Shown: one piece after another, positions 29,827 through 61,529 of the stretch
Numbering within the stretch: the stretch's first letter is position 1
Layout of the letters: every line of letters starts with the position of its first letter
DNA from: Escherichia phage ukendt
Sequence record: NC_052661.1
Length of the DNA: 64,000 nt
Strand: one strand, 5' to 3'
Translations under genes and position numbers: made by a program
The notes under the pieces: generated by a model
What the model was told of the DNA's origin: nothing
The model's input: the letters and a program-made list of their open reading frames with translations, nothing else
The model's database searches: none

Positions 29827-29828
29827 AC

Positions 29829-29903
29829 GTCTTTATGGTGTAATGGATAGCACAGGAGTCTTCTAAACTCTTAGTCAAGGTTCGATTCCTTGTAAAGACA
29901 CCA
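29829..29903 (+). tRNA. tRNA-Arg (anticodon TCT)
   Basis: acceptor GTCTTTA/TAAAGAC, anticodon loop CTTCTAA, T-arm CAAGG-TTCGATT-CCTTG, CCA. Confidence 0.75.
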
Positions 29904-30099
29904 GAACATTTTAACATGAATTAGCTCAAGTGATTTGAACCCACTACTGATCATGGTGGCAGAGAATGAGGTAAGTATGTCAGACATTATAAACAAAGGC
30001 CACGGTTATATTAGAAGACATAAATGCTCGAAGAGCACCGTTCGCTGAGAACGGGGGTTGGTGGAGTCACCATTCATGGTAAAATGTTTTAAAAAACTA

Positions 30100-30128
30100 T
30101 TGACAACTAACACTATTTTATGTTAGAT
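30100..30128 (+). promoter_or_regulatory. promoter TTGACA-N18-TAGATT with extended TG
   Basis: ctaTTGACAactaacactattttatgtTAGATT; upstream of the tRNA-Ser genes. Confidence 0.45.
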
Positions 30129-30137
30129 TATAAGCAT

Positions 30138-30228
30138 GGAAGGGCAAATCGACGTGGCGACGAAAACGGTCTTGAAAACCGCCGAGCTTGAAAGAGCCTT
30201 GGGAGTTCGACTCTCCCTCCTTCCGCCA
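30138..30228 (+). tRNA. tRNA-Ser (anticodon TGA), class II
   Basis: anticodon arm ACGGT-CTTGAAA-ACCGC and long variable arm as in E. coli tRNA-Ser(UGA); 3' end TCCTTCC-G-CCA; D-region irregular. Confidence 0.6.
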
Positions 30229-30232
30229 GATT

Positions 30233-30318
30233 GGTAGATTGGTGAAATGGTAGCCACGACAGTTTGCTAAACTGTAGTCGGAAACGGCGTGTAGGTTCGA
30301 GTCCTACATCTACCGCCA
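30233..30318 (+). tRNA. tRNA-Ser (anticodon GCT), class II
   Basis: acceptor GGTAGAT/ATCTACC, anticodon arm ACAGT-TTGCTAA-ACTGT, long variable arm, G73, CCA. Confidence 0.75.
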
Positions 30319-30448
30319 AGTTCTTTTTAATGTAGCTTACTTTAGCAGAGTAAATCTTCGGCAAGTGGCGGTAACCACTTTACCGATACCTCATAGTTAG
30401 TGGTGTGAACACTGGCTATTTTAAAAAGAATTTAAATATTAGTATTTA

Positions 30449-30536
30449 GGTGAGTTAATTCCGTAGGGGTAGCGGGGCAGACTGTAAATCTGTTATCATT
30501 GCGATTCGGGTGGTTCGACTCCATCACTCACCACCA
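30449..30536 (+). tRNA. tRNA-Tyr (anticodon GTA), class II
   Basis: acceptor GGTGAGT/ACTCACC, anticodon arm GCAGA-CTGTAAA-TCTGT (as E. coli tRNA-Tyr), long variable arm, A73, CCA. Confidence 0.7.
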
Positions 30537-30542
30537 AATTAA

Positions 30543-30628
30543 GATGAGTTGGCTGAATGGTTTAAGCGGCGGACTGTTAATCCGTGTTCGAAAGAACAAT
30601 ATAGGTTCGAATCCTATACTCATCGCCA
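30543..30628 (+). tRNA. class-II (Ser-type) tRNA with anticodon GTT (Asn codons)
   Basis: acceptor GATGAGT/ACTCATC, 3-bp D-stem GCT/AGC, anticodon arm GCGGA-CTGTTAA-TCCGT, 15-nt variable hairpin GTTC-GAAA-GAAC, T-arm ATAGG-TTCGAAT-CCTAT, G73, CCA. Confidence 0.6.
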
Positions 30629-30635
30629 GAATTAT

Positions 30636-30712
30636 GGACTTGTAGAGTTAAGGTAAACCCCCAGTCGCCAATAGGCTTCTGGAATTGCAGGTATCGAATC
30701 CTGCCGAGTCCC
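30636..30712 (+). pseudogene. degenerate tRNA-like element
   Basis: acceptor-like GGACTTG/CGAGTCC and T-arm-like GCAGG-TATCGAAT-CCTGC, but no canonical anticodon arm and no CCA. Confidence 0.25.
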
Positions 30713-30718
30713 AGCATT

Positions 30719-30793
30719 GCTCCTATAGTATAATGGCTATTACAACGGTTTTGTAATCCGTGGATCTCTGTTCGATTCAGTGTGGGAGCACCA
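30719..30793 (+). tRNA. tRNA-Thr (anticodon TGT)
   Basis: acceptor GCTCCTA/TGGGAGC, anticodon loop TTTGTAA, T-loop TTCGATT, CCA; T.T mismatches in anticodon and T stems. Confidence 0.5.
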
Positions 30794-31065
30794 ACACAAC
30801 ATTAAGAGCACTGTGATTGATCGTCGTATCCTGTGCACAAGGTCTGCTCGAAAGACAGTGTTCTTAGTATTGTGTTGATCACAAAAAGAGTCACCCGAAA
30901 CTTGACCGGAGTAGGGTTGGATGGGGCAAAATGAGAAGCGGCTCTCCCATCGACAGCAACGAAGAATAATATTTGACTTTGGTTTTGTATTATTTAAGTT
31001 AGCTTACCGAACGTAGGGCTAGTCACCCAACGGGATACTCGTCACTGTCCCAATCAATAAAAGTC

Positions 31066-31095
31066 TTGACAACAAATAGTAAAATGTAGTATAGT
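31066..31095 (+). promoter_or_regulatory. promoter TTGACA-N18-TATAGT
   Basis: cTTGACAacaaatagtaaaatgtagTATAGT, ~12 nt before tRNA-Gly. Confidence 0.45.
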
Positions 31096-31106
31096 AAAGA
31101 TATAGG

Positions 31107-31180
31107 GCGTTCTTGGTGTAGCGGTAGCATTCCGTCCTTCCAAGTCGGCGGCACGAGTTCGATCCTCGTAGAACGCTCCA
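31107..31180 (+). tRNA. tRNA-Gly (anticodon TCC)
   Basis: acceptor GCGTTCT/AGAACGC, anticodon loop CTTCCAA, T-arm ACGAG-TTCGATC-CTCGT, CCA. Confidence 0.6.
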
Positions 31181-31277
31181 AATTATTTAATAAAGGGTTG
31201 CCAGAAAACTTTCTCTTTTACTCATGGTTTTCTCCTTCTCTCACACTTCTTCTGGTTGCCCTTCATTAAATGATTTT

Positions 31278-31353
31278 TGGTTTGTAGTGTAGTCCGGTAG
31301 CACACGACACTTTGACTGTCGTAGGTTTGGTTCAAATCCAGACAGACCAGCCA
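31278..31353 (+). tRNA. tRNA-Gln (anticodon TTG)
   Basis: U1-A72 acceptor TGGTTTG/CAGACCA (as in E. coli tRNA-Gln), anticodon arm CGACA-CTTTGAC-TGTCG, G73, CCA. Confidence 0.7.
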
Positions 31354-31358
31354 TATAA

Positions 31359-31435
31359 CGGAATTTAGCTCAGTTTGGTAGAGTGTACGCTTTGGGAGCG
31401 TATTGTCGCAGGTTCGAATCCTGCAATTCCGACCA
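31359..31435 (+). tRNA. tRNA-Pro (anticodon TGG)
   Basis: acceptor CGGAATT/AATTCCG, D-arm TAGCTCAGTTTGGTAGAG, anticodon arm TACGC-TTTGGGA-GCGTA, T-arm GCAGG-TTCGAAT-CCTGC, CCA. Confidence 0.8.
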
Positions 31436-31441
31436 ATTAAA

Positions 31442-31515
31442 TGTTTCGTAGTTCAATGGTAGAACCCACGACTGATAATCGTGAGACACAAGTTCGATTC
31501 TTGTCGAAACAACCA
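31442..31515 (+). tRNA. tRNA-Ile (anticodon GAT)
   Basis: acceptor TGTTTCG/CGAAACA, anticodon arm CACGA-CTGATAA-TCGTG, T-arm ACAAG-TTCGATT-CTTGT, CCA. Confidence 0.75.
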
Positions 31516-31517
31516 GT

Positions 31518-31587
31518 TTCCCGTTAGACTTACAGGATAAGAGTTCCACAGCTTATTGTGATGCTGGTTCGAATCCAGCACGGGATA
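31518..31587 (+). pseudogene. degenerate tRNA-like element
   Basis: good T-arm GCTGG-TTCGAAT-CCAGC and D-arm-like region, but short aberrant anticodon arm, 1-72 mismatch and no CCA. Confidence 0.25.
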
Positions 31588-31593
31588 CATAAT

Positions 31594-31672
31594 AGCGGGA
31601 TAGAGGAGTCTGGTCGTCCTCGCCAGTTTCATATGCTGGAGATCATTGGTTCAAATCCGATTCCCGCCTCCA
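31594..31672 (+). tRNA. tRNA-Met (anticodon CAT), 1-72 mismatched
   Basis: acceptor AGCGGGA/TCCCGCC (A1.C72), D-stem GAGG/CCTC, anticodon arm CCAGT-TTCATAT-GCTGG, T-loop TTCAAAT, CCA. Confidence 0.6.
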
Positions 31673-50353: not shown

Positions 50354-50980
50354 ATGGGAATCCCTTTTGACTTAAAGCTTGGACCAAACAACGACCTCAT
50401 CATGGACGATGGGGATTTGGTCCTCACCACAACCAGAACAGAAATTGCAGCACAAACTCTTGGGATAACTCTGAACACGTATCGTGGAGAGTGGTTTTTA
50501 AATACTAACTTCGGTGTTCCTTACTTACAAGAGATTATTGGTGTTGCTAGAAAGAAAGATATTGTAGACAGAATATTTTTAGCGGAGATTGCCAAAAACG
50601 TTTACATAGATACAATAAACAGTTATAAATCTGCTTATGACATGGATCAACGTTATTACTCAATGACAGTTATGGTGACAGTTGGAGCAGATACAGTAAC
50701 ATCCGTATTCAATACTCAACCTTCTGAAGAGTTTATTTACCCTGAAGCTGGTGAAGACAATGCAGCGATCATTTGTGAAGCTTACAGTATTGTTGAGAAT
50801 TCGAATAGACTTTATCGCTTTATCAACTTTGTTGGTTTGCCACGTGATACCTACTCTACTTGGTGGAATGAATGGTCTACAGAGTCAGCAGGGGAAAGAA
50901 TCATGGTTAACGAAAAAGGTGATGCATTAGCTACAAACAATAATTTCGGTATAACAGCTATGACAGGAGTAGAAGAATAA
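50354..50980 (+). CDS. baseplate wedge protein (gp25/GpW-like domain, extended)
   Basis: N-terminal GDLVLTTTRTEIAAQTLGITLNTYRGEWFLNTNFGVP resembles gp25/W family. Confidence 0.55.
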   Translation: MGIPFDLKLGPNNDLIMDDGDLVLTTTRTEIAAQTLGITLNTYRGEWFLNTNFGVPYLQEIIGVARKKDIVDRIFLAEIAKNVYIDTINSYKSAYDMDQRYYSMTVMVTVGADTVTSVFNTQPSEEFIYPEAGEDNAAIICEAYSIVENSNRLYRFINFVGLPRDTYSTWWNEWSTESAGERIMVNEKGDALATNNNFGITAMTGVEE

Positions 50981-51453
50981 TGGCAGATTTAACTACGATC
51001 AAAGTTTCTGATCTTACACAAACAACCTCTGTATCTGATACAGATTTCTTTGTAACAGATCAGGCTGGAATAACAAAGAAGACTTCTTTGAAAGTGCTGT
51101 TGAGTGGTGCAGGGGTAACTAGAAACCGTTTAAATGCACGGGGAACAGTAACTAGCACCTTGGCATTAGATATTAGTTCAGCAGAATATTTTTCGGCAAC
51201 CTTATCTTCTGCAACGTGCACAATTAGTTTTACTAATATTCCAGTAGCAACGAATGCAGTTTTAAACTTTACTTTATCTTTGCGTCAAGGAAGTGGCGCA
51301 AATAAAGTCGTATGGCCTTCTTCTGTAAAATGGAGTTTTGGTCGTTCCCCAGTTTTGAGTTATCGTCAAGGTGCAACAGACACTTTTGAATTTATCAGTT
51401 ATGATAATGGTGCAACTTGGACAGGTAGCTTAGTTTTAGCAGGAGTTATTTAA
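50980..51453 (+). CDS. hypothetical tail protein (157 aa)
   Basis: ATGA overlap; Ser/Thr-rich beta-type composition. Confidence 0.4.
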   Translation: MADLTTIKVSDLTQTTSVSDTDFFVTDQAGITKKTSLKVLLSGAGVTRNRLNARGTVTSTLALDISSAEYFSATLSSATCTISFTNIPVATNAVLNFTLSLRQGSGANKVVWPSSVKWSFGRSPVLSYRQGATDTFEFISYDNGATWTGSLVLAGVI

Positions 51454-54329
51454 TGTCAAGAGTTAAGCACAATATTGACAACACGTTTCAGTTGATTGAA
51501 GGGTTGGTTCAGTTTTTGGAAAGAAATACTGGGCTTACCATAGATCCTACGGTTCAGCATTACATTATCAACCCACAAAACGTATTGGCGAACAACAGAC
51601 ACTTTATTAACTGGACAGCGCAGGAAGGGCAACCAAACGGTGACGCTACTACCGAAGGTCAATCTGTGCTTATCACTGGTTTTGCTTATGCATATTTGGC
51701 TACAGGGGATAAAAAATATCTTGAATCTGCCGAGAAGTATTGGCAAGCCTATATAGATCACTTCTTCGGGGGCCAACCTATTCCTGATCCTCCGGCTAAG
51801 TATCGTCCCAACTGGATCATCAATGGTAAAGAACCACGTTTAGCACATTACCCTCTCACAGATGATGGGTATCCTACGCACGGTGGGTTCAAAGGTAGCA
51901 TGATGACTTGGATTAACGGAAGGACTGTTATTCCTAAAGGTGCACCGCATTGGGGGGAATACTTAGATAAAGCTTGGTTTGCTTTCAATGGCAATCTTGG
52001 TTGGAACTCCGTTAACGCAACAGTTTATGCAACTAATCCAGATGGTTCAACCAACTGGAAAGAATATGGAGATCAGTGGGACGTTGAATGGATTATAGAT
52101 CGTCTAGGACGTAAAGTTGATTGGGATGGTAACATTTTATCTACAGGTCACAGCTTCGCAGAATATGGAACAGTGCAACTTAAAAATGCTTCTGTGAACG
52201 GTGATTATAAATTCAACTACGCTACATGCAACCCTGTAGAACACGGTGGATATCTGCTTAAGCGTAATGAGATGTGGCATAACCGTCCTGTAAACGTTCC
52301 GGTAGAGTTAGGTTATCAAGATAATGCTTCCGATGCTGAAACGTGGTGGTGTGATGCAAACTACTTGATGTATCAGATCACAGGAGAGAGAAAATACTGG
52401 CTTTGCTGGCAATCTTCTTTATTGTTGTGTCAAGACTACTCAAACATCGATATGTTTGATAAATTCTTCCGTAGATCTACGACAGCAATAATTCCTTTTA
52501 CAGATGGTATCTCTTATGATTACTCATACCCATCTACAGCAATACCTAAATATTCTCGTGACGAATTAGGATACACAGTAATTCGCCAAGATGTTGCAGC
52601 ACAAACAACTCTAGAACAACAGGCAGTTTGGTTCAGAGTGGATCAGAATTCAAAACTGCGTATTGAGTTTCAAGGTGTAGATGATGCAGGGGAAGGTGTT
52701 CTTTTCCGTCCAGAGTTAGAATTAAGCAAGACTAAGAGTGAAACAGACACAGTGACATATCGTTGTGGCTTACCTCTTGGTGCAGCTAATATGACTAAGA
52801 TGGATATACCTTTATCTAGTTTTATGCGCACTGAACCTCCTGGAGGTGGTGTATATATTATTGCTGAACCTAGAATAATTGTTGACTGGGGAAGCAATAC
52901 TGTGGTACAATATAAATATGCAACTGGTATTGCTGGGACAAATAGTGATCAGATAGTTTCTGCTAATATGGATTCAGATGGTGGTTTTACTATTGGATTT
53001 TGGTTAACACCAACTAAAACAGCTAATTTAAAATCTATTACGTATCGTTCATATGCAGATGATTTTAACATCACTATTACGGATTCCGCAGGTTGGAGAT
53101 GGTGGGCCATGTTAGAAAAAACAAATTCTGCATGGGTTACTAAAGCTTTAAGTCCTGCTGATTTCAAATTAAGCACTTGGCAACCTAATCACAATGACAC
53201 AGAGACAAAACCTTCGTCAATAAACCTGACTACTGTTGATCAGATCAACATTGCATTGGATTCTGAACCTGCAAATGGCTTGACAGGGGCAATCGACTTT
53301 TATTGCGTTAACGATATCCCATCTTTGTATTCTTCAGCCGCTGGCGATGATTACACAATGTATTTCAGGGTTACAGTTTCATCTGAAAATCCTTATACAG
53401 CAAAACTTGGAGATTGTACAATACTGGACTACAAACTTGACAGTTTGAATTATACTCCAGGAATCATTCCATTTTCCAATATTAGTGATCCTAACACAGC
53501 ATTATATGACGGTTGGCGTGGTATTCCTTACCCAGGTTATCAATACCCATCCTTATATTGTTTTAAAGGGAGAGATATTGACTGGGTTCGTATGAACAAC
53601 AGTATAGACTTTTTATATGATTCCCAAATGTGGTTTTATAATAAGTTTGCCCCTGTGATGCCTGGGCCAATGGCACAAGCTTATGTTTGGGATCGTTGGG
53701 ATGCTCATAAATACGGAAACAAGAATGAGTTCACAATGTATCATTGGAACGATAAAGCTTGGGATGGTTATGAAGCACGAGCATTCTTCTGTGCGTGTCA
53801 TACAGTATACGAACTGAAGCAACGAGGAGCAGAAGTTCCTGAAAAACTTTTAACAGTTTGTAAAAACTGGATCAATTATCTGAAGTGGTTCCAAGATAAC
53901 AACGAAGGAAGAACACCAACAATATTTTATCCCAACGGAGAAGTGGCTGCGCCTGTAGATGACTTTACAAGTCACATGTCTGCGCTCTTTATGGCGGGAT
54001 GTGCTATAATGGGGATGGCTGGATATGATTCAGAAATTCCTAACATTAAAATAGTAGCAGATCGCTGTTTTGAACTTATTCAGGAAAATTATATTGTTCT
54101 TGGTCCTAATCACGTTATGAATGGTTGTTGGAGTGCTGCTCCTAGACCAGACAGTGATAACGGAGTCTTCTTTGGCTTCCACGCCGGAGAGTTGTTACGT
54201 GGTTTTGGGTTGTATGCCTTATACAAAAAACTTAATCCCCAAAATGCATTACCTGTTTTGGATTCGAGCAATATTCCTGCACTTACTGTTTTGACAATGG
54301 CAAACATTAGTGTGGACGTTACCGAGTAA
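51453..54329 (+). CDS. large tail-associated protein (958 aa), possible glycoside-hydrolase-like
   Basis: Trp/Tyr-rich; QSVLITGFAYAYLATGDKKYLESAEKYWQ resembles alpha/alpha-toroid enzymes; unverified. Confidence 0.45.
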   Translation: MSRVKHNIDNTFQLIEGLVQFLERNTGLTIDPTVQHYIINPQNVLANNRHFINWTAQEGQPNGDATTEGQSVLITGFAYAYLATGDKKYLESAEKYWQAYIDHFFGGQPIPDPPAKYRPNWIINGKEPRLAHYPLTDDGYPTHGGFKGSMMTWINGRTVIPKGAPHWGEYLDKAWFAFNGNLGWNSVNATVYATNPDGSTNWKEYGDQWDVEWIIDRLGRKVDWDGNILSTGHSFAEYGTVQLKNASVNGDYKFNYATCNPVEHGGYLLKRNEMWHNRPVNVPVELGYQDNASDAETWWCDANYLMYQITGERKYWLCWQSSLLLCQDYSNIDMFDKFFRRSTTAIIPFTDGISYDYSYPSTAIPKYSRDELGYTVIRQDVAAQTTLEQQAVWFRVDQNSKLRIEFQGVDDAGEGVLFRPELELSKTKSETDTVTYRCGLPLGAANMTKMDIPLSSFMRTEPPGGGVYIIAEPRIIVDWGSNTVVQYKYATGIAGTNSDQIVSANMDSDGGFTIGFWLTPTKTANLKSITYRSYADDFNITITDSAGWRWWAMLEKTNSAWVTKALSPADFKLSTWQPNHNDTETKPSSINLTTVDQINIALDSEPANGLTGAIDFYCVNDIPSLYSSAAGDDYTMYFRVTVSSENPYTAKLGDCTILDYKLDSLNYTPGIIPFSNISDPNTALYDGWRGIPYPGYQYPSLYCFKGRDIDWVRMNNSIDFLYDSQMWFYNKFAPVMPGPMAQAYVWDRWDAHKYGNKNEFTMYHWNDKAWDGYEARAFFCACHTVYELKQRGAEVPEKLLTVCKNWINYLKWFQDNNEGRTPTIFYPNGEVAAPVDDFTSHMSALFMAGCAIMGMAGYDSEIPNIKIVADRCFELIQENYIVLGPNHVMNGCWSAAPRPDSDNGVFFGFHAGELLRGFGLYALYKKLNPQNALPVLDSSNIPALTVLTMANISVDVTE

Positions 54330-54337
54330 GGGGTAAA

Positions 54338-56491
54338 ATGAAACAAGCTATATTTACTGTCACGCGAGACAAGAGAGTAAATGCGAGTTCATTTAACTAC
54401 ACGACTGTTGACGGAACAGCAGTCGCTGGTAGAGATTATATTGCAAAATCGGGAACACTTGTGTTCCCTGATGATGCTGATTCTGCTACCATTGTGGTTG
54501 AAGTATTTGAACGACCAAAGAACTCAATAGATCTTAACTTCTCCCTCCAAGTTTCAGGGATTAGTCAAAATAATATGATGGTTGAAACAATCATCAATTG
54601 TATTATAACTACTATCCAAGAAAATACCACTCCAATAACTTGGACTACAAAAGACGTTAAAATGTTCTCTCCTATGTATTGGACAATAGATTCTCAAGCA
54701 ACGGAAAGTTGTTCTATTGTATCTCATGGAGACTCTTTTACTGCAAGATTTGTAAACAGAACAACAGCAGGTTTGGCAGGGGTTATCTGGAGCACAGTTG
54801 ACAAATATGACCATAAAGGTGTTGGGTATTTACCCCACACAGATTTAAGTTCAGAGAAACTTTGGTTTAAAATGGAAATTAGTCAAAACATGCCAGGTTT
54901 TAAAGAAGAACCTTTGGTGCCGACTTTGACTGTAACTCTCCTGGATAAAAGTGTTCATTATGTCAGTTTAGGATTCTACGCTTCAGATATTTCAGAAGAT
55001 GGTAAAACAGCTACAATCAAGTTAGATTTTGGTAATATCTTTTCTGGCCCTAATAATGATATTCCTTTGGATATGAGTGCTGTAGATAATATTTTCTTCT
55101 CTTTGATTACAGCAAGGTATGAAGAAATAGAAGAGATTGTACCTATTGCCAGTCTAGAGGCTTGGTTTACTTTCACTCTTCTTGAACCTACTTCTGGTTA
55201 CAGTATGATGAAAGTCAGCAACCTTGTCCAGCCTGAACATGATATTCGCATGTGCACATCTTATGATGATATGTATAACCTGACTCCAGAGAGAGTTATT
55301 TATAATACATATGCACTAGGTTATCGTGGAATGATTAACCATTATAACGGAATGTCTCACTATTATGAGTTCTCATGGAACGGAACATCTTGGGCTTTAA
55401 ATAGATCTGTTTTCCTGAATCCGGCTACAGAAGCTTGGCTTAACAGTTTCCATTCTATAGCTAATGAAAATGGCTACACAATAATGAACTCTTTGAGTTT
55501 TGAGTTGATGAGCACAGTTTGTCCTGTTGAATGGGTCCAGCATGATTGGAACGATGCTCTTGCAGCAACAGGGTATAAGCCTCCTAGTTACGTGTTGTCT
55601 CCAACTATTGACGAAGGCATGGAATATTTGCAAAATGTTATTAACAAAATAGCATCTATTTCTCAAGCTAATAACATTCCAGTCGTCATTCAAATTGGTG
55701 AACCTTGGTGGTGGTATAATACAGCAAGTAAAATGCCTTGTATATATGATTACACTACCAAACTGGCATTCAATACAGAAACAGGCTTATTTGCACAAGA
55801 TGCAGGAACAATAGATAATTATAAAACAGGAACGCCATTTGACGAATACTATGCATTTCTGTCTCGTAAACTAGGGTTAAGAGTTACAAAGTTTGCAACA
55901 GACACCAGAGCAACTTATCCTGGAGCTAAAGTAACATTGCTTCCGTTCTTACCATCAATTATCGGCAACGGTTTGATGGAGAAAGTTAACTTTCCGTCTG
56001 ATTACTACATTCCTGAAGCTTTTGATTTTTATTGTTCAGAATGTTACGACTGGCTTCTGGAAGGTAAAATGATGAAAGCATTCGATGCAATTACCATACC
56101 ACATGAAAAATTAGGTTTTGAATATTCTGATATTCACTATCTTTCGGGTTTTGTTCCAGATGCTACTCTTGCACCTTTGTATGGCTTCGATCCTGAATCA
56201 AACTACCGCACGTATCTTTGGAAAATGATTATAGGTAATATAGTGTTGAACGCCAATAAGTTTGACGGACTTACACAATATATATGGGCCTATCCTCAAA
56301 TAATGCATGATTCTATCACGGTAGTTAATTCTCAATCCCAAGTTTTCTATATGGGTAACGTGCCTTTGAACGTCTATTTACAGGATATCACTCTTAAACA
56401 GGCAAATGTTGAGATTGCCACCATAAGTGGAATTACATTAGCCACTAAATCTGGAGAAGATTTAGTAACAACACAAAAATTTTATATATAG
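54338..56491 (+). CDS. large tail-associated protein with N-terminal Calx-beta-like domain (717 aa)
   Basis: FTVTRD...SSFNYTTVDGTAVAGRDYIAKSGTLVFPDDADSATIVVEV matches Calx-beta pattern (T.DGTA.AG.DY....GTL.F). Confidence 0.5.
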   Translation: MKQAIFTVTRDKRVNASSFNYTTVDGTAVAGRDYIAKSGTLVFPDDADSATIVVEVFERPKNSIDLNFSLQVSGISQNNMMVETIINCIITTIQENTTPITWTTKDVKMFSPMYWTIDSQATESCSIVSHGDSFTARFVNRTTAGLAGVIWSTVDKYDHKGVGYLPHTDLSSEKLWFKMEISQNMPGFKEEPLVPTLTVTLLDKSVHYVSLGFYASDISEDGKTATIKLDFGNIFSGPNNDIPLDMSAVDNIFFSLITARYEEIEEIVPIASLEAWFTFTLLEPTSGYSMMKVSNLVQPEHDIRMCTSYDDMYNLTPERVIYNTYALGYRGMINHYNGMSHYYEFSWNGTSWALNRSVFLNPATEAWLNSFHSIANENGYTIMNSLSFELMSTVCPVEWVQHDWNDALAATGYKPPSYVLSPTIDEGMEYLQNVINKIASISQANNIPVVIQIGEPWWWYNTASKMPCIYDYTTKLAFNTETGLFAQDAGTIDNYKTGTPFDEYYAFLSRKLGLRVTKFATDTRATYPGAKVTLLPFLPSIIGNGLMEKVNFPSDYYIPEAFDFYCSECYDWLLEGKMMKAFDAITIPHEKLGFEYSDIHYLSGFVPDATLAPLYGFDPESNYRTYLWKMIIGNIVLNANKFDGLTQYIWAYPQIMHDSITVVNSQSQVFYMGNVPLNVYLQDITLKQANVEIATISGITLATKSGEDLVTTQKFYI

Positions 56492-56499
56492 GAGTAAAA

Positions 56500-58914
56500 A
56501 TGTCAACTACAATTACTAATTTACCCGAAACATCAAAAGTTAATGGTTCAGATTACCTGGTTTTAGATCAACCTGATAAAACTGTTAAAAGCACAGTTTC
56601 CAACTTTCTTGCTGACACTGGGGTGGTTTTAGCCACCCAGTTGAAAGATACAGATGGAGCAGATTTAATACAATCCTCAAATGGTAATACTGTTCAGGAA
56701 GAGTTGAATAACAATCTTCTTAATGATCGTGAACAGTGGCGTCGTAGTCTTGCTGAAGCAGGGCTAACACTGGTAAGCGGTAGCTTTGAGGAAGGCGCTA
56801 CAGTAAATAGTAAAACGGATGCTGTTTGGCACATTTCTGTTGGACAGTGTTATACATGGCATGGCGCTTTCCCTAAAACTGTTCCTGCTGACTCAACCCC
56901 TACATCAACCGGTGGTGTTGGTCCTAGTGCGTGGGTTAGTGTTGGTGATGCGAGTTTGCGGTCAATAGCTCAATATAGAGCCAATAACATCGAAGCGTTA
57001 AAATCATTGCCGCTTGCAGTTGGAGACATTGTTAATATTGCTGGATATTATGATGTTTTTGATGGAGCGCAGCATTACCGAGTGATTAGTGATGCAGATG
57101 ATGGAACAGGAGTTCAGCTCAATAATGGTTTATGGGCAAATATTATCATTAATGGCGATGCTTGTGTTGATTGGTTCGGGGCTAAAGGTGACGGTGTAGC
57201 TGATGATTGGTGGGCTATCAATAAAGCCATTAATGCTTCAATTTCTACCGCTTATCAGGGCGGTTGGTGGGAAACGTCAAGTAGAAACCCTAAATTTAAG
57301 GTGCATCTCAGTCGCCGCTCTTATCGTATTACTCGGCAAATACTACTACCTCCTTACATAGAGTTTTATGGTATGGGTTCGCGCTGGTATTTTTCTGGTG
57401 ATAATAATTCTCGCTTAATCCCTGATTTTGATAATCCGTTGCAATTCGCTGTGAAATCTGCTAGCTATATTGTTGAAACCGGTGAACTAGCACCTGAGGG
57501 GTGGTATTCTGGGGTGGTTTGGGTTGACCCAAAAAAACTAACGACTTGTCATGGTATTAAAACTTATGGATATAGCATCGAACCAACAAAACAAATTTTA
57601 GGCGGTATAAGACTGATAGCGAGCCCAATTTCTCATGTATATGATATATTCATAACAAATGTTGATTTTGGAGTTTTACTGAATTGTTCATGGGTGAGTA
57701 AGGTTGACGTTAAAACTCATCATAATAAATGTGGGGTTATGTCTAGTCATGATGGTAATAACACTCACGTGGATGGTTATTTTACAGGGACAGAAATCAA
57801 ACCGCTTGATGGTAATCCTTACCTCAACCCAATAGAGTCTTTAGACCCTACAACAGGGCTCCAAGACAAATCTATATCTGACCCAGACAGTAAAATAGGT
57901 GTGATTTTTTATTGGTCACAGGGGTCAACAAGTACGAATATGACGTGTGAGGGTAACACTATTTCGTTGGCTGTGGCTAAGGGTGGTGCTGATGTAAGGT
58001 GTTTATACTCAGAACGTAATTCAGATTGTACATTTACTGGGTACAGTTCACTAGTTACAATTGGTGAAATAACTGGCATTGGTGACGGTGGAACTTTTGA
58101 GCTTGGTGTAAATAATACTATTTCGTTAGACAAAGACACTCAGTATGGTGTCGCTAAACGATTTAAGTACGTGAGCGAGTGGGGTAATAAGATGTTTATG
58201 CCCTCTAGCTGGAAAGAATACACCAAAGGTTGTTTAGTTAAAGGATTTGATTATAGCGAAATTTTTGTAGATGCGATAAATGGAGATGACACTAATGTTG
58301 GTTCCAGTCTTTACCCTGTGAAAACTTTGGAGAGAGCTCTAACGCTTGTGAATTCAGTGTATACTACATCTAACTTGCTAAGCTCAGTGCCGAGGGATAG
58401 AGTAATAAAGTTAGTAGGCTCAGCAACATACTATCCAGACGGACAGCATAGGTTCATAGGTGGATCGTTGACAATTACAAAAGCTGATAACTCACGACCG
58501 ATTGTTAATTTATCAAAACCAATCCGAATTAACGACACATCTCTAGTATTTGAGGAAGTAAATTTAGTGCGACCAACAGATGACCACGGGAATGGTGAGA
58601 ATGGCGCAATTTTCCTTGAGGATGGGAGTAATGAAGTCAGATTGAAAAACTGTGATCTAAGTCTACAAAAATTCAGCTTCTTATATCCTACTTGGGGTTT
58701 TGCTGGAATATGTACCTTGGTGTTACACGGGGTTAGTGTTACTGGTGATTCAACAACAAGAATGATACAAACAGCTGATGGATATCATGATTTGCACTTG
58801 TTTAATGTAATTAGCTACGAGACAACTTACACTGGAGGAATAGAGTCAAGACTAGATAAAGGCTATGATATACCAGCAGATAGACGTGGTCATATATTGG
58901 GTGTATCAATATAA
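56500..58914 (+). CDS. tailspike/depolymerase with pectate-lyase-like beta-helix
   Basis: DACVDWFGAKGDGVADDWWAINKAINAS (FGAKGDG.TDD hallmark); N-terminal anchor-like MSTTITNLPETSKVNGSDYLVL; 804 aa. Confidence 0.6.
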   Translation: MSTTITNLPETSKVNGSDYLVLDQPDKTVKSTVSNFLADTGVVLATQLKDTDGADLIQSSNGNTVQEELNNNLLNDREQWRRSLAEAGLTLVSGSFEEGATVNSKTDAVWHISVGQCYTWHGAFPKTVPADSTPTSTGGVGPSAWVSVGDASLRSIAQYRANNIEALKSLPLAVGDIVNIAGYYDVFDGAQHYRVISDADDGTGVQLNNGLWANIIINGDACVDWFGAKGDGVADDWWAINKAINASISTAYQGGWWETSSRNPKFKVHLSRRSYRITRQILLPPYIEFYGMGSRWYFSGDNNSRLIPDFDNPLQFAVKSASYIVETGELAPEGWYSGVVWVDPKKLTTCHGIKTYGYSIEPTKQILGGIRLIASPISHVYDIFITNVDFGVLLNCSWVSKVDVKTHHNKCGVMSSHDGNNTHVDGYFTGTEIKPLDGNPYLNPIESLDPTTGLQDKSISDPDSKIGVIFYWSQGSTSTNMTCEGNTISLAVAKGGADVRCLYSERNSDCTFTGYSSLVTIGEITGIGDGGTFELGVNNTISLDKDTQYGVAKRFKYVSEWGNKMFMPSSWKEYTKGCLVKGFDYSEIFVDAINGDDTNVGSSLYPVKTLERALTLVNSVYTTSNLLSSVPRDRVIKLVGSATYYPDGQHRFIGGSLTITKADNSRPIVNLSKPIRINDTSLVFEEVNLVRPTDDHGNGENGAIFLEDGSNEVRLKNCDLSLQKFSFLYPTWGFAGICTLVLHGVSVTGDSTTRMIQTADGYHDLHLFNVISYETTYTGGIESRLDKGYDIPADRRGHILGVSI

Positions 58915-58936
58915 ATAATTGATATTATGCTTCATG

Positions 58937-58969
58937 GTAATTGTGGGTGAATCACTCACAATTACTTTT
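58937..58969 (+). terminator. intrinsic terminator after tailspike gene
   Basis: 9-bp stem GTAATTGTG/CACAATTAC, 11-nt loop, followed by TTTT. Confidence 0.55.
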
Positions 58970-59494
58970 AGGTACTACAGTTGATAATTCAGATTGATAC
59001 ATTGGATTAGCAGGTGCGTGTACTACTAGCACTTGAATTTTGATACATAAATCCGGCACCCTCCCTCACCCTCAACGCGCCCAATTGCCTCCATAGGAGG
59101 CTCATTACCTCCTTGTGGGCTTTGTTGTAGGCATGATTGCTGTTCAATATTTTAGGCACTAACCAGCCGACATTGTTGATGGAAATATAAACGTAAACAA
59201 CAATGCATATAACTCAGTTGTTGTGGCACTAAATTCTTACGTAGGTTATAGGTTGTTGTAAAACAAAACCCCGACTCGGCGGAGAATTATAAAGGTACTA
59301 TCATGGACTTCATTACGATTCAAACAAACTATGTCCTGCAAGCGCATGTCATCGCCATGTGATAAAATGATGAAAACATATCGTAGCAGGGTTAATCTTG
59401 TCTTTAGTTACTATCGTACTAACTCAAAGTGTTGTCACTACCACTGCAAGCCCCCTCCAAAGAGGGGCTTACTTAGAAAAACAAAGAGGTTTAT

Positions 59495-59803
59495 ATGAAC
59501 GAATTATTCTCACAAGGTGGTAAGGGTTCAACAGGAATCCTAACCAACAAGCAAGCAGTAGCCCGTCACTTTGGGGTTAAACAATCTGAGGTTGTTTACT
59601 TCTCAGTAGGTGCTCTGCTTACAGGTTACAAAGTCATCTATGACAAAGTGTCACAGAGGGCTTACTCATTACCTGCTGATATTGCCCCAGGTACTACTGC
59701 CATTAGTCTTAGTGCTGCTGTACTTGTGCATTCAGCGGGTTCTGTAGACCTTGGGGAATTAGCTATATCTCGTGATTTAAAAAGTAATGAGAACGCACTA
59801 TGA
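59495..59803 (+). CDS. hypothetical protein (102 aa)
   Basis: SD AAGAGG; preceded by GC hairpin at ~59450..59468. Confidence 0.45.
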   Translation: MNELFSQGGKGSTGILTNKQAVARHFGVKQSEVVYFSVGALLTGYKVIYDKVSQRAYSLPADIAPGTTAISLSAAVLVHSAGSVDLGELAISRDLKSNENAL

Positions 59804-60042
59804 GAAAATTTTTAATAGGTATGTTCTGTACATATCCTGATAATAAAGTCAGTTCTACTAAAGTCTGGAACGCTGTAGGCATGTCGGTTATGACAGGCAT
59901 GTTTATCTTTTTAGGAATAGAAAAAGAAATTCCTGAATGGATGGGTTGGGCTTTTGTTTTCATGATAACTCCTTCTCGCCTCATGAAAAATCTTATTGAT
60001 TTACGCTGGGGCAGATCACAATCTACCAAAGAGGATGACTAA
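59800..60042 (+). CDS. small membrane protein (80 aa)
   Basis: two hydrophobic segments and a charged C-terminus; ATGA overlaps on both sides. Confidence 0.4.
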   Translation: MRKFLIGMFCTYPDNKVSSTKVWNAVGMSVMTGMFIFLGIEKEIPEWMGWAFVFMITPSRLMKNLIDLRWGRSQSTKEDD

Positions 60043-61529
60043 TGGACGAATATGGTTTGACAGATGCGGGATTTGTAATCCCGACTTTTGACGATGTTTT
60101 AAACAACTACATGACAGCAGTAAAAAACACATTTGGTGCAGATGCAGCCACTTCGGAAGATACTGTGATCGGACAACTGTTTAGAATAATTGCATACACA
60201 GATTACACATTGTGGGAAGGTATGCAAGGGGTTTATAATACTCAAACACTGGATGGTGCAGAAGGTATTTATCTTGACGAAATCTTTTCTAAACGTGGTT
60301 TCTATCGAGCAGGGGCAGCAGCAAGTACAGGTTATGCCTATGTTAAGAGTAATAACAAAGCAGCTTGGACTTATGAGTTAGGCACAGATATTTACTTCAA
60401 CTCTGATAGTGATATGAACTACTATGTTAGCACACCAACTATGTTGAATGCTAAGATTGCAGCTTATCAAATTTCTCGTGCTAATGCAACTGCTACAGGT
60501 GTTCCAAATATTACTTTTTATGCACAAAGTGCGATAGATGGAGGACTAAACAGTAAAACACTTGCACCTGGTTCTTCTACATTTATAACCGATCTTGAAA
60601 CTTTTATCAAGGCGAATTTAACAGAAGCTGATCGTAGTCTTGTATTTTCTGATTCAGGTAACTTATCAATTGGTTTTACTTCTTTAACCAGTGATACTCC
60701 AGTGGGGCTGGTAACTCCTATTAAATTTTATGCTAGTGTTCCGGTTGGAACCAAGTGGAGTGAGATTCCGGTAGTTGCAGCAGAGAAAGGATACAATCCT
60801 GTTGGTGTGGAGTCTATTACAGGGATATCTTCTACCTTTACAGGTTATCTTGACAGTGGTAACTTTTATTCATTTTCTCCTGGTCGGGATGTTGAGACAG
60901 ACGCAGAATTCCGCTCTCGTTTCAATGACAACGTTGATGAAGCTAACGCAGGGACACGAGCAGCTATTGTGAAAGCTCTGTTACTTACAGATGGTGTTAC
61001 TAAGGTGAAGATTTATGATAACCCTACATTACATGATCAAGAACACGCTCCAGCTATGACTTTCCAGACTATAGTTTATGGTGGCAGTGCAGAAGAAATT
61101 GCAAATGTTATCTATAAAACCAAACCAATCAACACTTTGACACACGGAACAACAAACATAACTGTTACAACGGAAGACGGAGGACAAGAAATTATTCGTT
61201 TTTCTCCTGGTGCTTCTGCTACATATTCCGTAAAACTTGTTTATCAAACTGTCAACGGAACAACTTTAAGTGGAACAGAAAAACAAAACATTGTAGAAGC
61301 TTTACAAAACCTGCAAGCTTACTTTGAATTAGGTTCTTCAGTAACGAACGATCAAATCAAAGGTGTTATTTATGCAGCACTTGCTTTTGGACGCTTGACT
61401 TCTCTTCGTGTTTATGTTAAACTTAATACTGAGGATGACAGTAAATATACAGAGAATAATATAGTTCCTGCTTATAATGTTGTCCCTTCTTTTGACCTTG
61501 ATAACATTTCTTACGAGTATGGAGTGTAA
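60042..61529 (+). CDS. baseplate protein J-like
   Basis: 495 aa; N-terminal region DEIFSKRGFYRAGAAASTGYAY is J-like; followed by I-like, fibre and Tfa genes. Confidence 0.6.
   Translation: MDEYGLTDAGFVIPTFDDVLNNYMTAVKNTFGADAATSEDTVIGQLFRIIAYTDYTLWEGMQGVYNTQTLDGAEGIYLDEIFSKRGFYRAGAAASTGYAYVKSNNKAAWTYELGTDIYFNSDSDMNYYVSTPTMLNAKIAAYQISRANATATGVPNITFYAQSAIDGGLNSKTLAPGSSTFITDLETFIKANLTEADRSLVFSDSGNLSIGFTSLTSDTPVGLVTPIKFYASVPVGTKWSEIPVVAAEKGYNPVGVESITGISSTFTGYLDSGNFYSFSPGRDVETDAEFRSRFNDNVDEANAGTRAAIVKALLLTDGVTKVKIYDNPTLHDQEHAPAMTFQTIVYGGSAEEIANVIYKTKPINTLTHGTTNITVTTEDGGQEIIRFSPGASATYSVKLVYQTVNGTTLSGTEKQNIVEALQNLQAYFELGSSVTNDQIKGVIYAALAFGRLTSLRVYVKLNTEDDSKYTENNIVPAYNVVPSFDLDNISYEYGV

What the first reader, a model, noticed from the sequence alone, without database searches (positions are those of the whole stretch)
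51453..59494. ~8.5-kb block of three large carbohydrate-enzyme-like tail proteins, followed by ~480 bp without ORFs
Between the gp25/W-like wedge gene and the J-like gene, where P2/Mu-type baseplates are usually contiguous, sit three large ORFs: 958 aa (Trp/Tyr-rich, toroid-hydrolase-like), 717 aa (N-terminal Calx-beta-like T.DGTA.AG.DY....GTL.F) and 804 aa (FGAKGDG..DD pectate-lyase-type beta-helix with tailspike-like N-terminal anchor). A terminator follows (58937..58969), then ~480 nt with no ORF of 60 aa or more on either strand and GC-rich palindromes, before the baseplate operon resumes. This looks like an acquired host-range/depolymerase cassette; the ORF-free stretch may be a recombination scar or hold a small RNA.
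Basis: partly seen in the sequence, partly recalled or inferred. Interest (0 to 1): 0.6.

Follow-up and report, generated by a model that had tools for sequence, protein, structure and literature searches.

The report
Phage receptor-binding genes with swap scar
This is the known sugar-targeting host-recognition gene cluster of a phi92/phAPEC8-like E. coli phage; only the tip of its third gene is newly imported, and the empty stretch after it is mostly DNA carried along with that import.

Summary
Three ORFs of 958, 717 and 804 aa are followed by a strong terminator hairpin and a 580-nt gap with no ORF of 60 aa or more. The window is a Phapecoctavirus (Stephanstirmvirinae), about 97% identical to published phages.

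The block as a whole is not an acquired cassette.
- ORF1 and ORF2 are the conserved homologues of phi92 gp141 and gp142, in the same position.
- ORF2 carries Calx-beta plus N4 gp65/gp64-type domains. The literature calls this the tailspike that targets the N4 glycan receptor.
- Only ORF3, in the known variable gp143 slot, is foreign.

ORF3's receptor-binding part plus 254 nt downstream (56857-59168) is 95% identical and collinear with a Gamaleyavirus-like (N4-like podovirus) contig. Inside that flank lies a fragment of a T7-like phage's right genome end, including the first ~37 nt of its terminal repeat.

The import may extend into the 102-aa ORF at 59495, which is a lone tailspike N-terminal domain, not a baseplate gene.

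I found no small RNA and no conserved small gene. One 165-nt stretch (59330-59494) is nearly invariant in about 13 phages of two families and remains unexplained.

The biology is ordinary, but the recombination record is unusually legible.

The parts
50354..50980 (+). 208-aa gene at the position of phi92 gp139 (sheath initiator, the gp25/W-type protein). It marks the left border of the receptor-binding cluster.
   Evidence: Gene order matches phi92. gp139 is named the sheath initiator in PMC13450770. There is no Pfam hit, so the assignment rests on synteny only.
50980..51453 (+). 157-aa small fibre-like protein, the homologue by position of phi92 gp140. It is not gp25-like.
   Evidence: It matches phrog_9017 'tail fiber protein' (E 1.4e-68) and lies at the position of phi92 gene 140.
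51453..54329 (+). ORF1, 958 aa, homologue of phi92 gp141. It is an (alpha/alpha)6-barrel, glycosidase-like tail protein with beta-sandwich inserts, and is conserved in the backbone.
54338..56491 (+). ORF2, 717 aa, homologue of phi92 gp142. Its domains are Calx-beta, NCTSP_N and a TIM barrel of the N4 gp64 type. The literature identifies this as the tailspike that targets the N4 glycan receptor.
   Evidence: Pfam matches: PF03160, PF23844, PF23845 (E 6e-79). PDB 9lc0 chains for gp64 and gp65 match. It is 76.5% identical to phi92 gp142. Function comes from the literature.
56500..58914 (+). ORF3, 804 aa, a chimeric tailspike in the variable gp143 slot. 56500-56856 is the backbone-type anchor, 56857-56951 is the crossover zone inside the Tail_spike_N coding sequence, and 56952-58914 is the imported receptor-binding/enzyme part.
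   Evidence: Pfam matches are. Relatives share only residues 1 to about 155. Similarity to backbone phages ends at 56951, and similarity to the Gamaleyavirus-like contig L008 begins at 56857.
58937..58969 (+). Intrinsic-terminator-like hairpin with a TTTT tail, imported together with the tailspike body.
   Evidence: -17.9 kcal/mol, z -5.6. It is present in L008 with small stem differences.
58967..59100 (+). Fragment of the right genome end of a T7-like (Autographiviridae) phage. It comprises the flank downstream of that phage's last gene (a tailspike) plus the first ~37 nt of its direct terminal repeat. The repeat start corresponds to window 59064/59065.
   Evidence: It is 88.8% identical to Providencia phage PS3 40777-40910. 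59059-59100 is 95% identical to the start of the annotated right repeat in Klebsiella phages F19 and KpV475.
59091..59168 (+). 78 nt of Gamaleyavirus backbone that normally lies downstream of that genus's tailspike slot. This piece indicates the direction of transfer.
   Evidence: It is 86% identical to SP5M, about 160 nt downstream of that phage's unrelated tailspike. L008 continues collinear with SP5M for 1 kb beyond this point. The junction with the PS3-like piece falls at the shared motif CCATNGGNGG.
59169..59257 (.). 89 AT-rich nt with no match anywhere searched.
59269..59284 (.). Decayed copy of a hairpin that is perfect in relatives (CCCCGCTTCGGCGGGG). On the minus strand it reads as a terminator.
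59330..59494 (+). 165-nt non-coding element that is 95-99.4% identical in about 13 phages: Phapecoctavirus, Justusliebigvirus and one Gamaleyavirus. It contains TGATAAAAT at 59360-59368, a hairpin at 59450-59468 and the ribosome-binding site of the next gene. Its function is not established.
59495..59803 (+). 102-aa ORF, a stand-alone copy of the N-terminal anchor domain of Gamaleyavirus/CBA120-type tailspikes. It is itself mosaic: 59605-59669 is Gamaleyavirus-like and 59670 onward is backbone. It is the probable 3' crossover site.
   Evidence: It matches phrog_7992 positions 327-420 and phrog_18484 positions 1-95. It is absent from phi92. pN/pS is about 0.17.
59800..60042 (+). 80-aa protein annotated 'membrane protein', the homologue by position of phi92 gp144.
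   Evidence: It matches phrog_1322 and lies at the position of phi92 gene 144.
60042..61529 (+). J-like baseplate wedge subunit, homologue of phi92 gp145. It marks the right border of the cluster.
   Evidence: Pfam Baseplate_J, phrog_6, and PMC13450770.

Best explanation
The region is the multivalent glycan-targeting adsorption cluster of a phi92/phAPEC8-like myovirus. It is encoded between the sheath-initiator and wedge genes.

**The three proteins.**
- ORF1 (gp141-like) is an (alpha/alpha)6-barrel, glycosidase-like tail protein.
- ORF2 (gp142-like) is the tailspike that shares N4 gp65/gp64 domains and is reported to target the N4 glycan receptor.
- These two are fixed backbone genes and probably act as one physical unit.
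- ORF3 is the exchangeable tailspike. Its N-terminal ~120 residues dock it to the virion, and the rest recognises and presumably cleaves a host surface polysaccharide.

**The exchange.** In this phage the ORF3 body was replaced by recombination with a Gamaleyavirus-like (N4-like) podovirus.
- The left crossover lies in the conserved Tail_spike_N coding sequence (56857-56951).
- The imported tract carries the donor's terminator and 3' flank (to 59168).
- It may continue to a right crossover inside the 102-aa anchor-domain ORF (about 59669).

**The older layer.** The imported flank itself contains an earlier scar. This is the end of a T7-like phage genome in which the tailspike is the last gene before the terminal repeat.

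**The gap.** The 580-nt ORF-free stretch is therefore carried-along non-coding DNA plus a short, highly conserved leader upstream of the 102-aa gene. That leader most plausibly serves as promoter and 5' leader.

**Shown versus inferred.** Shown: the homologies, the breakpoints and the folds. Inferred: enzymatic activities, the ORF1-ORF2 association, the direction and number of transfer events, and any regulatory role of the leader.
For: **Identity of the phage and conservation of the cluster.**

**Roles of the phi92 homologues.** PMC13450770, PMC5380687, bioRxiv 10.64898/2026.04.02.716166, PMC8669472. The variable gp143 slot is described in PMC10269720.

**ORF1 fold.**

**ORF2 domains.**

**ORF1 and ORF2 as one unit.** P0121 is a single polypeptide. 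Its residues 13-960 match ORF1 at 44% identity, and residues 968-1538 match ORF2 residues 108-675 at 51%.

**The import.**
- Window 56857-59168 is 95.2% identical over 2312 nt to L008.
- L008 is Gamaleyavirus-like: 93.6% identical over 1 kb to SP5M.
- SP5M has an unrelated tailspike body but shares both flanks.

**T7-like end fragment.**

**Mosaic 102-aa ORF.**

**Slot contents in relatives.** The gap is 48 nt in phi92. It is 231-655 nt in other relatives, sometimes with small annotated ORFs.
Against: - No donor with the full arrangement was found. L008 diverges from the window at 59168. The segment 59169-59257 matches nothing. A single 2.8-kb tract is therefore not proven, and two separate events are equally possible.
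- No T7-like phage carrying this receptor-binding domain was found. The closest other relatives are in a small myovirus contig (84%) and in Proteus and other enterobacterial prophages (56-59%).
- The ORF3 structure model was poor (pLDDT 51). Its beta-helix fold and activity rest on a Pfam match that is short and only 3.6 bits above its cut-off, and on 26% identity to Acinetobacter phage tailspikes.
- ORF1 shares only about 10% identity with known glycosidases, and its catalytic residues are not identified.
- The sigma-70 scan found no plus-strand promoter in the gap.
Confidence: 0.8

Rival explanations
1. The whole block of about 8 kb (all three ORFs) is a recently acquired host-range/depolymerase cassette inserted into a once-contiguous baseplate operon.
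For: The genes do interrupt the order from W-like to J-like baseplate genes. Homologues of ORF1 occur in many unrelated phage groups, which suggests the module is portable on long time scales.
Against: ORF1 and ORF2 are 95-99% identical to those of dozens of Phapecoctavirus genomes, and 76-83% identical to Justusliebigvirus, always in the same place. GC content does not differ from the rest of the window. Sequence breakpoints exist only within ORF3 and downstream of it.
Confidence: 0.03
2. The gap, specifically the 165-nt invariant element at 59330-59494, encodes a functional small RNA or a structured cis-regulatory RNA that moves between phage families.
For: - The element is 95-99.4% identical in about 13 phages of two families, while the adjacent 102-aa ORF is only 80-89% identical.
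- On the minus strand a promoter-like site at 59438-59410 faces a terminator-like hairpin at 59284-59269. That hairpin is perfect in relatives.
- A hairpin at 59450-59468 shows loop changes but a retained stem in phage EcG1.
Against: - There is no Rfam match.
- Predicted folding is no better than shuffled sequence on either strand (z -0.77 and -0.66).
- Variation is too low to test covariation.
- The upstream hairpin is missing in ZCKP1, EcG1 and EF1-1 and has decayed in this window.
- The patchy, near-identical distribution fits recent co-transfer equally well.
Confidence: 0.15
3. The gap contains a conserved small protein gene, the 55-aa ORF at 59331-59498.
For: An ATG-started ORF of 55 aa is present. 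Its first 41 codons are shared with relatives.
Against: - No Shine-Dalgarno sequence precedes it (sequence).
- One-base indels in this window and in EcG1 shift the C-terminal frame, and EF1-1 lacks the first ATG.
- All four amino-acid-level differences seen in this frame, in U1G and Ro121c4, are non-synonymous.
Confidence: 0.04
4. The transfer ran the other way, from a Phapecoctavirus to the Gamaleyavirus-like phage. Alternatively, both received the cassette independently from a third phage.
For: Only one Gamaleyavirus-like contig (L008) carries this domain. The window's copy of the PS3-like piece is closer to PS3 (88.8%) than L008's copy (83.6%, with a 10-nt deletion).
Against: The window carries 78 nt (59091-59168) that in Gamaleyaviruses with an unrelated tailspike is backbone sequence, continuing for 1 kb. 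Other Stephanstirmvirinae lack it.
Confidence: 0.15

Closest known systems
Multivalent adsorption apparatus of Escherichia phage phi92 (gp140-gp147; Justusliebigvirus, Stephanstirmvirinae)
   Same: - The gene order is the same: spike, sheath initiator, gp140, gp141, gp142, exchangeable tailspike, gp144, wedge gp145/gp146, fibre gp147.
- ORF1 is 83% identical to the gp141 homologue of Justusliebigvirus PD06. phi92's own gp141 was matched by position and length only.
- ORF2 is 76.5% identical to phi92 gp142.
- The third position is a known variable slot.
   Different: phi92 carries an endosialidase in the slot, followed by only 48 nt before gp144. This phage carries a pectate-lyase-type tailspike. 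Its closest relatives are a Gamaleyavirus-like contig and, more distantly, Proteus prophages. It also has a 580-nt non-coding stretch and an extra 102-aa anchor-domain ORF.
Bacteriophage N4 non-contractile sheath heterodimer gp65/gp64 (PDB 9lc0, 9yf4)
   Same: ORF2 residues 361-606 match gp64 (E 8e-30) and residues 275-344 match gp65 (E 1.6e-12). Pfam NCTSP_N and TIM-barrel_NCTSP score far above their cut-offs. N4, Vequintavirinae and phi92-like phages are all reported to depend on the N4 glycan receptor.
   Different: ORF2 is a single 717-aa protein with an added Calx-beta domain, on a contractile-tailed phage. It cannot form a sheath around a podovirus tail. The name 'non-contractile tail sheath' in some annotations is inherited from N4 and misleading here.
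Branched tailspike systems of Gamaleyavirus G7C (gp63.1/gp66) and Kuttervirus CBA120 (TSP1-4)
   Same: ORF3 shares the Tail_spike_N domain (PF18668; PDB 4oj5, 5w6h, 8x8m). The 102-aa ORF equals the domain that precedes Tail_spike_N in those tailspikes (phrog_7992 positions 327-420, phrog_18484 positions 1-95).
   Different: Here the anchor domain stands alone as a 102-aa protein without a tailspike body. ORF3 uses a different N-terminal anchor, specific to Stephanstirmvirinae.
(alpha/alpha)6-barrel glycoside hydrolases (GH8, GH76, GH105/GH88, GH48) and N-acylglucosamine 2-epimerase-type (AGE-type) epimerases
   Different: Sequence identity is about 10%. No Pfam glycoside hydrolase family matches. 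The barrel is split by about 570 residues of beta-sandwich inserts. Neither activity nor catalytic residues are established.
Drulisvirus/Kakivirus (Autographiviridae) genome right end: last-gene tailspike followed by the direct terminal repeat
   Same: Window 58967-59100 is collinear with the stretch from downstream of the tailspike gene into the first ~37 nt of the terminal repeat.
   Different: The fragment sits in the middle of a roughly 150-kb myovirus genome and has no repeat partner in the window. It is presumably inert there.

Membership tests
Stephanstirmvirinae (phi92/phAPEC8-like) receptor-binding gene cluster | Nucleotide identity to members of the genus across the flanking tail genes | tested here: met
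   Identity is 96.6-98.1% to about 30 listed Phapecoctavirus genomes outside the variable part.
Stephanstirmvirinae (phi92/phAPEC8-like) receptor-binding gene cluster | Same gene order as phi92 gp134-gp148 | tested here: met
   Shown. The one difference is an added 102-aa ORF and gap.
Stephanstirmvirinae (phi92/phAPEC8-like) receptor-binding gene cluster | The proteins are present in the virion as fibres or spikes | not testable with these tools
   This needs virion proteomics or cryo-EM. In the 2026 phi92 structure paper gp141 and gp142 are not mentioned and fibre II is unassigned.
N4 gp65/gp64-type (NCTSP) glycan-receptor tailspike | Pfam NCTSP_N and TIM-barrel_NCTSP above their gathering scores | tested here: met
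   Scores are 59.2 and 266 bits against cut-offs of 27. PDB chains 9lc0_M and 9lc0_I match.
N4 gp65/gp64-type (NCTSP) glycan-receptor tailspike | Dependence of infection on the N4 glycan receptor pathway (nfrB, wecB), or deacetylase activity | not testable with these tools
   This is reported for phi92-like phages in PMC8669472 and the 2026 preprint. It was not tested for this phage.
Tailspike depolymerase with pectate-lyase-type beta-helix | Tail_spike_N adaptor domain | tested here: met
   PF18668 scores 72.1 bits against a cut-off of 25.
Tailspike depolymerase with pectate-lyase-type beta-helix | Right-handed beta-helix catalytic body | tested here: inconclusive
   PF12708 matches only residues 223-293, at 30.6 bits against a cut-off of 27. 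Identity to Acinetobacter phage tailspikes is 26% over residues 224-802. The AF2 model was too poor to use (pLDDT 51).
Tailspike depolymerase with pectate-lyase-type beta-helix | Polysaccharide cleavage (halo formation, oligosaccharide products) | not testable with these tools
   This is an experimental test.
(alpha/alpha)6-barrel glycoside hydrolase | Six-hairpin barrel fold | tested here: met
(alpha/alpha)6-barrel glycoside hydrolase | Sequence membership in a described glycoside hydrolase family | tested here: not met
   There is no Pfam family at E<=0.01 and no PDB sequence match.
(alpha/alpha)6-barrel glycoside hydrolase | Catalytic acid/base pair in the barrel centre | not tested
   Invariant acidic residues exist (D64, D294, E296, D336, E388, D750, E913). 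Their positions in the model could not be inspected.
Small RNA or structured RNA element in the gap | Match to a described RNA family | tested here: not met
   The only Rfam hit is a plant microRNA at 18.6 bits against a gathering score of 75.
Small RNA or structured RNA element in the gap | Folding energy better than shuffled sequence, or covariation | tested here: not met
   z-scores are -0.77 and -0.66. The alignment has too little variation for a covariation test.
Intrinsic terminator after ORF3 | Stable hairpin followed by a T run directly after the stop codon | tested here: met
   The consensus scan missed it because the loop is shorter than 3 nt by its rule.

The most novel reading that the evidence does not exclude
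The lone 102-aa anchor-domain ORF and the nearly invariant 165-nt leader before it may form a maintained 'landing pad'. Together with the conserved Tail_spike_N coding sequence upstream, it would give the phage two homology arms. With these arms it could capture whole tailspike cassettes from unrelated podoviruses (N4-like, and through them T7-like).

On this reading the 165-nt element is a portable promoter/leader or RNA element under its own selection, not merely carried-along DNA.

A linked reading comes from the natural fusion of ORF1-like and ORF2-like proteins. It suggests that gp141 and gp142 form one heteromeric fibre, which could be the unassigned fibre II or the arm of fibre I in the phi92 baseplate.
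Probability: 0.2. Interest if true: 0.55.

Novelty: new member of a known kind. Interest (0 to 1): 0.3.

Why it matters
The gene cluster itself is textbook for phi92-like phages, so the finding does not change what is known about them. Four things are useful.

1. **A dated, base-resolved exchange.** This is a tailspike exchange that crosses three phage families: T7-like, then N4-like, then phi92-like. Both homology zones and the carried-along flanks are still readable. That is direct evidence for how broad-host-range phages refresh their receptor specificity, and it bears on engineering tailspike swaps.

2. **A new tailspike allele.** Its closest relatives outside the donor lineage are in a small myovirus contig and in Proteus and other enterobacterial prophages. 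This hints at a host polysaccharide shared across genera.

3. **A large uncurated protein family.** The ORF1 family has a clear (alpha/alpha)6-barrel fold and no Pfam family, so it is a candidate for a new carbohydrate-active family.

4. **A clue for the phi92 baseplate.** The natural fusion of ORF1-like and ORF2-like proteins is a lead for assigning the fibre densities that remain unresolved in the phi92 baseplate.

Tried and rejected
- **Rfam search of 58800-59600 at permissive threshold:** only a chance-level plant microRNA hit.
- **Folding of the conserved element on both strands:** not better than shuffled sequence.
- **Covariance model:** not built, because the nine aligned copies are nearly identical.
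- **Small-protein reading of the 55-aa ORF:** rejected on frame shifts and substitution pattern.
- **Repeated copies of gap sequences elsewhere in the window (mobile regulatory cassette idea):** none beyond chance 10-13-mers.
- **Sigma-70 consensus scan:** no plus-strand promoter. It gave only weak minus-strand sites, 5 found against 2.6 expected. The extended -10 motif TGATAAAAT at 59360 is my own reading and occurs 7 times in the window by a loose pattern.
- **Exact-match scans of IMG/VR and the metagenome collection.** Neither the orphan 89 nt nor the junction between the T7-like and Gamaleyavirus pieces was found. The 165-nt core gave one IMG/VR hit, a 149,506-bp contig of the same length as phage PD06.
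- **Exact look-up of the ORF3 protein:** not on record.
- **AF2 model of ORF3 with 14 sequences:** pLDDT 51, so no fold search was run on it.
- **Schwarzer et al. 2012 (the phi92 genome paper):** not available in the library. The 'glycosidase' label for gp141 and gp142 is second-hand, from a review table.
- **pN/pS comparisons with anhysbys and SP5M:** invalid, because indels break the ungapped comparison. I disregarded them.

Full report
**1. What is there**

A 14-bp-arm hairpin at 58937-58965 with a TTTT tail follows the last stop codon. It folds at -17.9 kcal/mol with z = -5.6 against shuffles.

The next coding sequence starts at 59495, leaving 580 nt whose longest ORFs are 50, 55 and 41 aa. 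The median spacing between ORFs in this window is 9 nt. This gap is the third largest of 92, and the two larger ones are the tRNA cluster. The gap is therefore a real oddity for this genome.

**2. Whose genome**

The region is 96.6-98.1% identical to about thirty listed Phapecoctavirus genomes (subfamily Stephanstirmvirinae; phAPEC8/phi92-like myoviruses of about 150 kb). The exception is a central quarter that does not align.

Annotated relatives and phi92 itself show the same gene order:
- tape measure
- Dit-like tube initiator
- plug
- hub
- spike (Pfam)
- gp139-position gene
- gp140-like 157-aa protein
- ORF1 (gp141)
- ORF2 (gp142)
- a tailspike (gp143 slot)
- gp144-like 80-aa protein
- J-like wedge gp145, then gp146, then fibre gp147

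According to the 2026 cryo-EM paper on phi92 (PMC13450770):
- gp139 is the sheath initiator, the gp25/W-type protein.
- gp145 and gp146 form the wedge.
- gp143 is inferred to be fibre I.
- gp147 is fibre III.

The gene immediately before the block (50980-51453) is therefore not gp25-like. It matches a 'tail fiber' PHROG.

**3. The three proteins**

*ORF1.*
- It has no Pfam family and no PDB sequence relative. It belongs to a very large family of about 940 aa (phrog_2871).
- The family is found in Stephanstirmvirinae, Vequintavirinae, about 85-kb and about 240-kb Salmonella and Erwinia phages, small phages of 41-54 kb, and Enterobacter and E. coli chromosomal contigs.
- An AlphaFold2 model from 36 sequences is confident (pLDDT 85.5, pTM 0.82).
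- Foldseek picks up CBM11/CBM22-like beta-sandwiches.
Activity remains unproven, since identity is about 10% and no glycoside hydrolase family matches.

*ORF2.*
- It has Calx-beta (residues 4-81), NCTSP_N (107-292) and TIM-barrel_NCTSP (299-658, E 6e-79).
- It matches the solved N4 proteins gp64 (E 8e-30) and gp65 (E 1.6e-12).
- In N4 those two proteins form the non-contractile sheath and receptor-binding unit (PMC13434306).
- The literature identifies phi92 gp142 and its relatives as the tailspike that targets the N4 glycan receptor. These are described as homologous 'glycan deacetylase tailspikes' shared by N4, Vequintavirinae and phi92-like phages.
- ORF2 is 76.5% identical to phi92 gp142 and at least 95% identical in 63 records.

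*ORF1 and ORF2 together.* A natural single protein, P0121 (1557 aa), joins an ORF1-like part (residues 13-960, 44% identity) to an ORF2-like part (residues 968-1538, matching ORF2 108-675 at 51% identity). I take this as evidence that the two act as one physical unit. That is an inference.

*ORF3.*
- It has the Tail_spike_N adaptor (residues 93-150) and a short pectate-lyase-type match that includes WFGAKGDGVADD.
- It matches the N-terminal parts of solved tailspikes (CBA120 TSPs and others).
- Relatives share only its first roughly 155 residues.
- This is the known variable slot. In other members it holds an endosialidase, a different spike, a truncated gene or nothing (PMC10269720).

**4. 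The block is not a cassette; the tip of ORF3 is**

ORF1 and ORF2 are backbone genes. The foreign part begins inside ORF3.
- Similarity to backbone phages ends at 56951.
- From 56857 to 59168 the window is 95.2% identical over 2312 collinear nt to L008.
- L008 is a 3954-bp assembled contig whose remainder is 93.6% identical over 1 kb to Gamaleyavirus SP5M, an N4-like podovirus.
- The overlap 56857-56951 encodes the conserved Tail_spike_N domain. It is also shared at 93% with SP5M and at 72-75% with PS3 and U1G. This is the left homology zone.

The receptor-binding part has few relatives:
- 96% protein identity in L008
- 84% in a small-myovirus contig
- 56-59% in Proteus mirabilis and Proteus vulgaris prophage spikes, a prophage in an enterobacterial contig, and an IMG/VR contig
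- nothing above about 27% in the phage genome collection

**5. Anatomy of the ORF-free stretch**

From left to right:
- **(a) 58915-58969:** the stop codon context and the terminator, shared with L008.
- **(b) 58967-59100:** 88.8% identical to the right end of Providencia phage PS3 (Kakivirus, Autographiviridae). There it lies just downstream of the last gene, a tail fibre/spike, and runs into the annotated short terminal repeat.
  - The sub-piece 59059-59100 is 95% identical to the start of the annotated right repeat of the Klebsiella Drulisvirus phages F19 and KpV475, which also end with a tailspike gene.
  - The repeat start maps to window 59064/59065, so about 37 nt of a podovirus terminal repeat are embedded here.
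- **(c) 59091-59168:** 86% identical to SP5M sequence about 160 nt downstream of that phage's unrelated tailspike. L008 continues collinear with SP5M beyond this point, but the window does not. The joint between (b) and (c) falls at a shared CCATNGGNGG motif.
- **(d) 59169-59257:** 89 AT-rich nt that match nothing.
- **(e) 59258-59494:** shared with a subset of relatives (section 7).

Piece (c) is Gamaleyavirus backbone, and other Stephanstirmvirinae lack it. The simplest history is therefore nested:
1. A T7-like phage's last-gene tailspike, with its flank and the first bases of the terminal repeat, entered a Gamaleyavirus-like lineage.
2. From there the cassette, with a further piece of flank, entered this Phapecoctavirus.

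The direction is inferred, not proven. No T7-like phage with this domain was found.

**6. The ORF after the gap**

The 102-aa ORF at 59495-59803 is not a baseplate gene.
- It matches the N-terminal anchor domain that precedes Tail_spike_N in Gamaleyavirus- and CBA120-type tailspikes (phrog_7992 positions 327-420; phrog_18484 positions 1-95).
- It aligns with the 5' end of the L008 and SP5M tailspike genes.
- phi92 lacks it altogether: gp143 is followed after 48 nt by gp144.
- In phage W22 only a 49-aa ORF is annotated at this position.
- Against other Stephanstirmvirinae its pN/pS is about 0.17, so it has been under protein-level constraint.

In this window it is mosaic:

| Segment | Identity to other Stephanstirmvirinae | Identity to Gamaleyavirus tailspike 5' ends |
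|---|---|---|
| 59605-59669 | 40/65 (62%) | 53-55/65 (82-85%) |
| 59670-59801 | 99-100% (to Ro121c4) | 48-68% |

- No phage in the collection matches the whole ORF better than 89%.
- The right-hand boundary of foreign sequence may therefore lie at about 59669.
- That would make a single tract of about 2.8 kb (56857-59669), exchanged by two homologous crossovers in conserved domain-coding sequence.
- Two separate events cannot be excluded, because no donor with the full arrangement was found.

**7. The conserved 165 nt**

Window 59330-59494 is nearly invariant (95-99.4%) in 20 records, about 13 distinct phages. These are Phapecoctavirus, Justusliebigvirus and the Gamaleyavirus U1G, and the element always lies directly upstream of the anchor-domain ORF. 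Most other members of the subfamily have different contents there, such as small ORFs and 73-nt spacers.

It contains:
- TGATAAAAT at 59360-59368, which is my reading as an extended -10 motif and was not found by the scan
- a hairpin at 59450-59468
- the ribosome-binding site

It is not a described RNA family. It does not fold better than shuffled sequence and is not repeated elsewhere in the window. Its 55-aa ORF is broken by frame shifts among copies.

I favour a promoter/leader carried with the anchor-domain gene. Its conservation above that of the neighbouring coding sequence remains unexplained.

**8. Verdict**

The enzyme-like nature of all three proteins and the 'recombination scar' idea stand. 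The idea of an 8-kb acquired cassette and the small-RNA idea do not.

The cluster is the already described multivalent adsorption apparatus of phi92-like phages. What is new is one tailspike allele and an unusually legible, nested record of its passage between three phage families.

Interest is modest (0.3). The unexplained 165-nt element and the gp141-gp142 fusion clue are the parts worth a follow-up.

Noticed in passing
window 59495-59803: The 102-aa ORF is a stand-alone tailspike N-terminal anchor domain. It is present in Phapecoctavirus and some Justusliebigvirus but absent from phi92, and in phage W22 only a 49-aa ORF is annotated at this position. In this window its 5' two-thirds carry a Gamaleyavirus-like patch (59605-59669).
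   Followed up: yes
window 59330-59494; L004 (U1G) 5001-5227: A 165-nt non-coding element is 95-99.4% identical across about 13 phages of two unrelated families. It is more conserved than the coding sequence next to it, and its function is unknown.
   Followed up: partly
protein P0121 (1557 aa, metagenomic): This is a natural fusion of an ORF1-like and an ORF2-like protein without the Calx-beta domain. Other ORF1-family members are fused to Tail_P2_I (PF09684) or Gly_rich_2 (PF21722) domains. This suggests ORF1 is a common platform for different distal modules.
   Followed up: partly
window 51453-54329 (ORF1 family): This is a very large family of about 940 aa with constant length and many invariant Trp/Asp/Glu/His/Arg positions. 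It has a confident (alpha/alpha)6-barrel model but no Pfam family, and it also occurs in Enterobacter and E. coli chromosomal contigs.
   Followed up: partly
window 29752-31672: A cluster of 10 tRNA genes (Met x2, Arg, Ser, Asn, Thr, Gly, Gln, Pro, Ile). It accounts for the two largest ORF-free stretches in the window.
   Followed up: no
window 28291-28772: A 482-nt stretch without an ORF of 60 aa or more lies just upstream of the tRNA cluster. I did not examine it.
   Followed up: no
window 59269-59284: This hairpin is perfect in relatives (CCCCGCTTCGGCGGGG with a TTCG loop, reading as a minus-strand terminator). It has decayed here to -4.2 kcal/mol.
   Followed up: partly
L010 (ZCKP1), L014 (EcG1), L015 (tuntematon), L016 (anhysbys): The stretch between the tailspike stop and the 102-aa ORF varies between relatives, from 231 to 655 nt. 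Depending on the phage it contains 0-2 small annotated ORFs of 42-147 aa, so the whole slot downstream of the tailspike varies among relatives.
   Followed up: partly
window 50980-51453 and 56500-56620: By eye, the N-termini of the 157-aa gp140-like protein and of ORF3 share a motif (L..........D...V.DQ....T.K.S). One PHROG (phrog_7760) matches the N-terminal region of ORF3 and the C-terminal region of the 157-aa protein. They may share a docking site.
   Followed up: no
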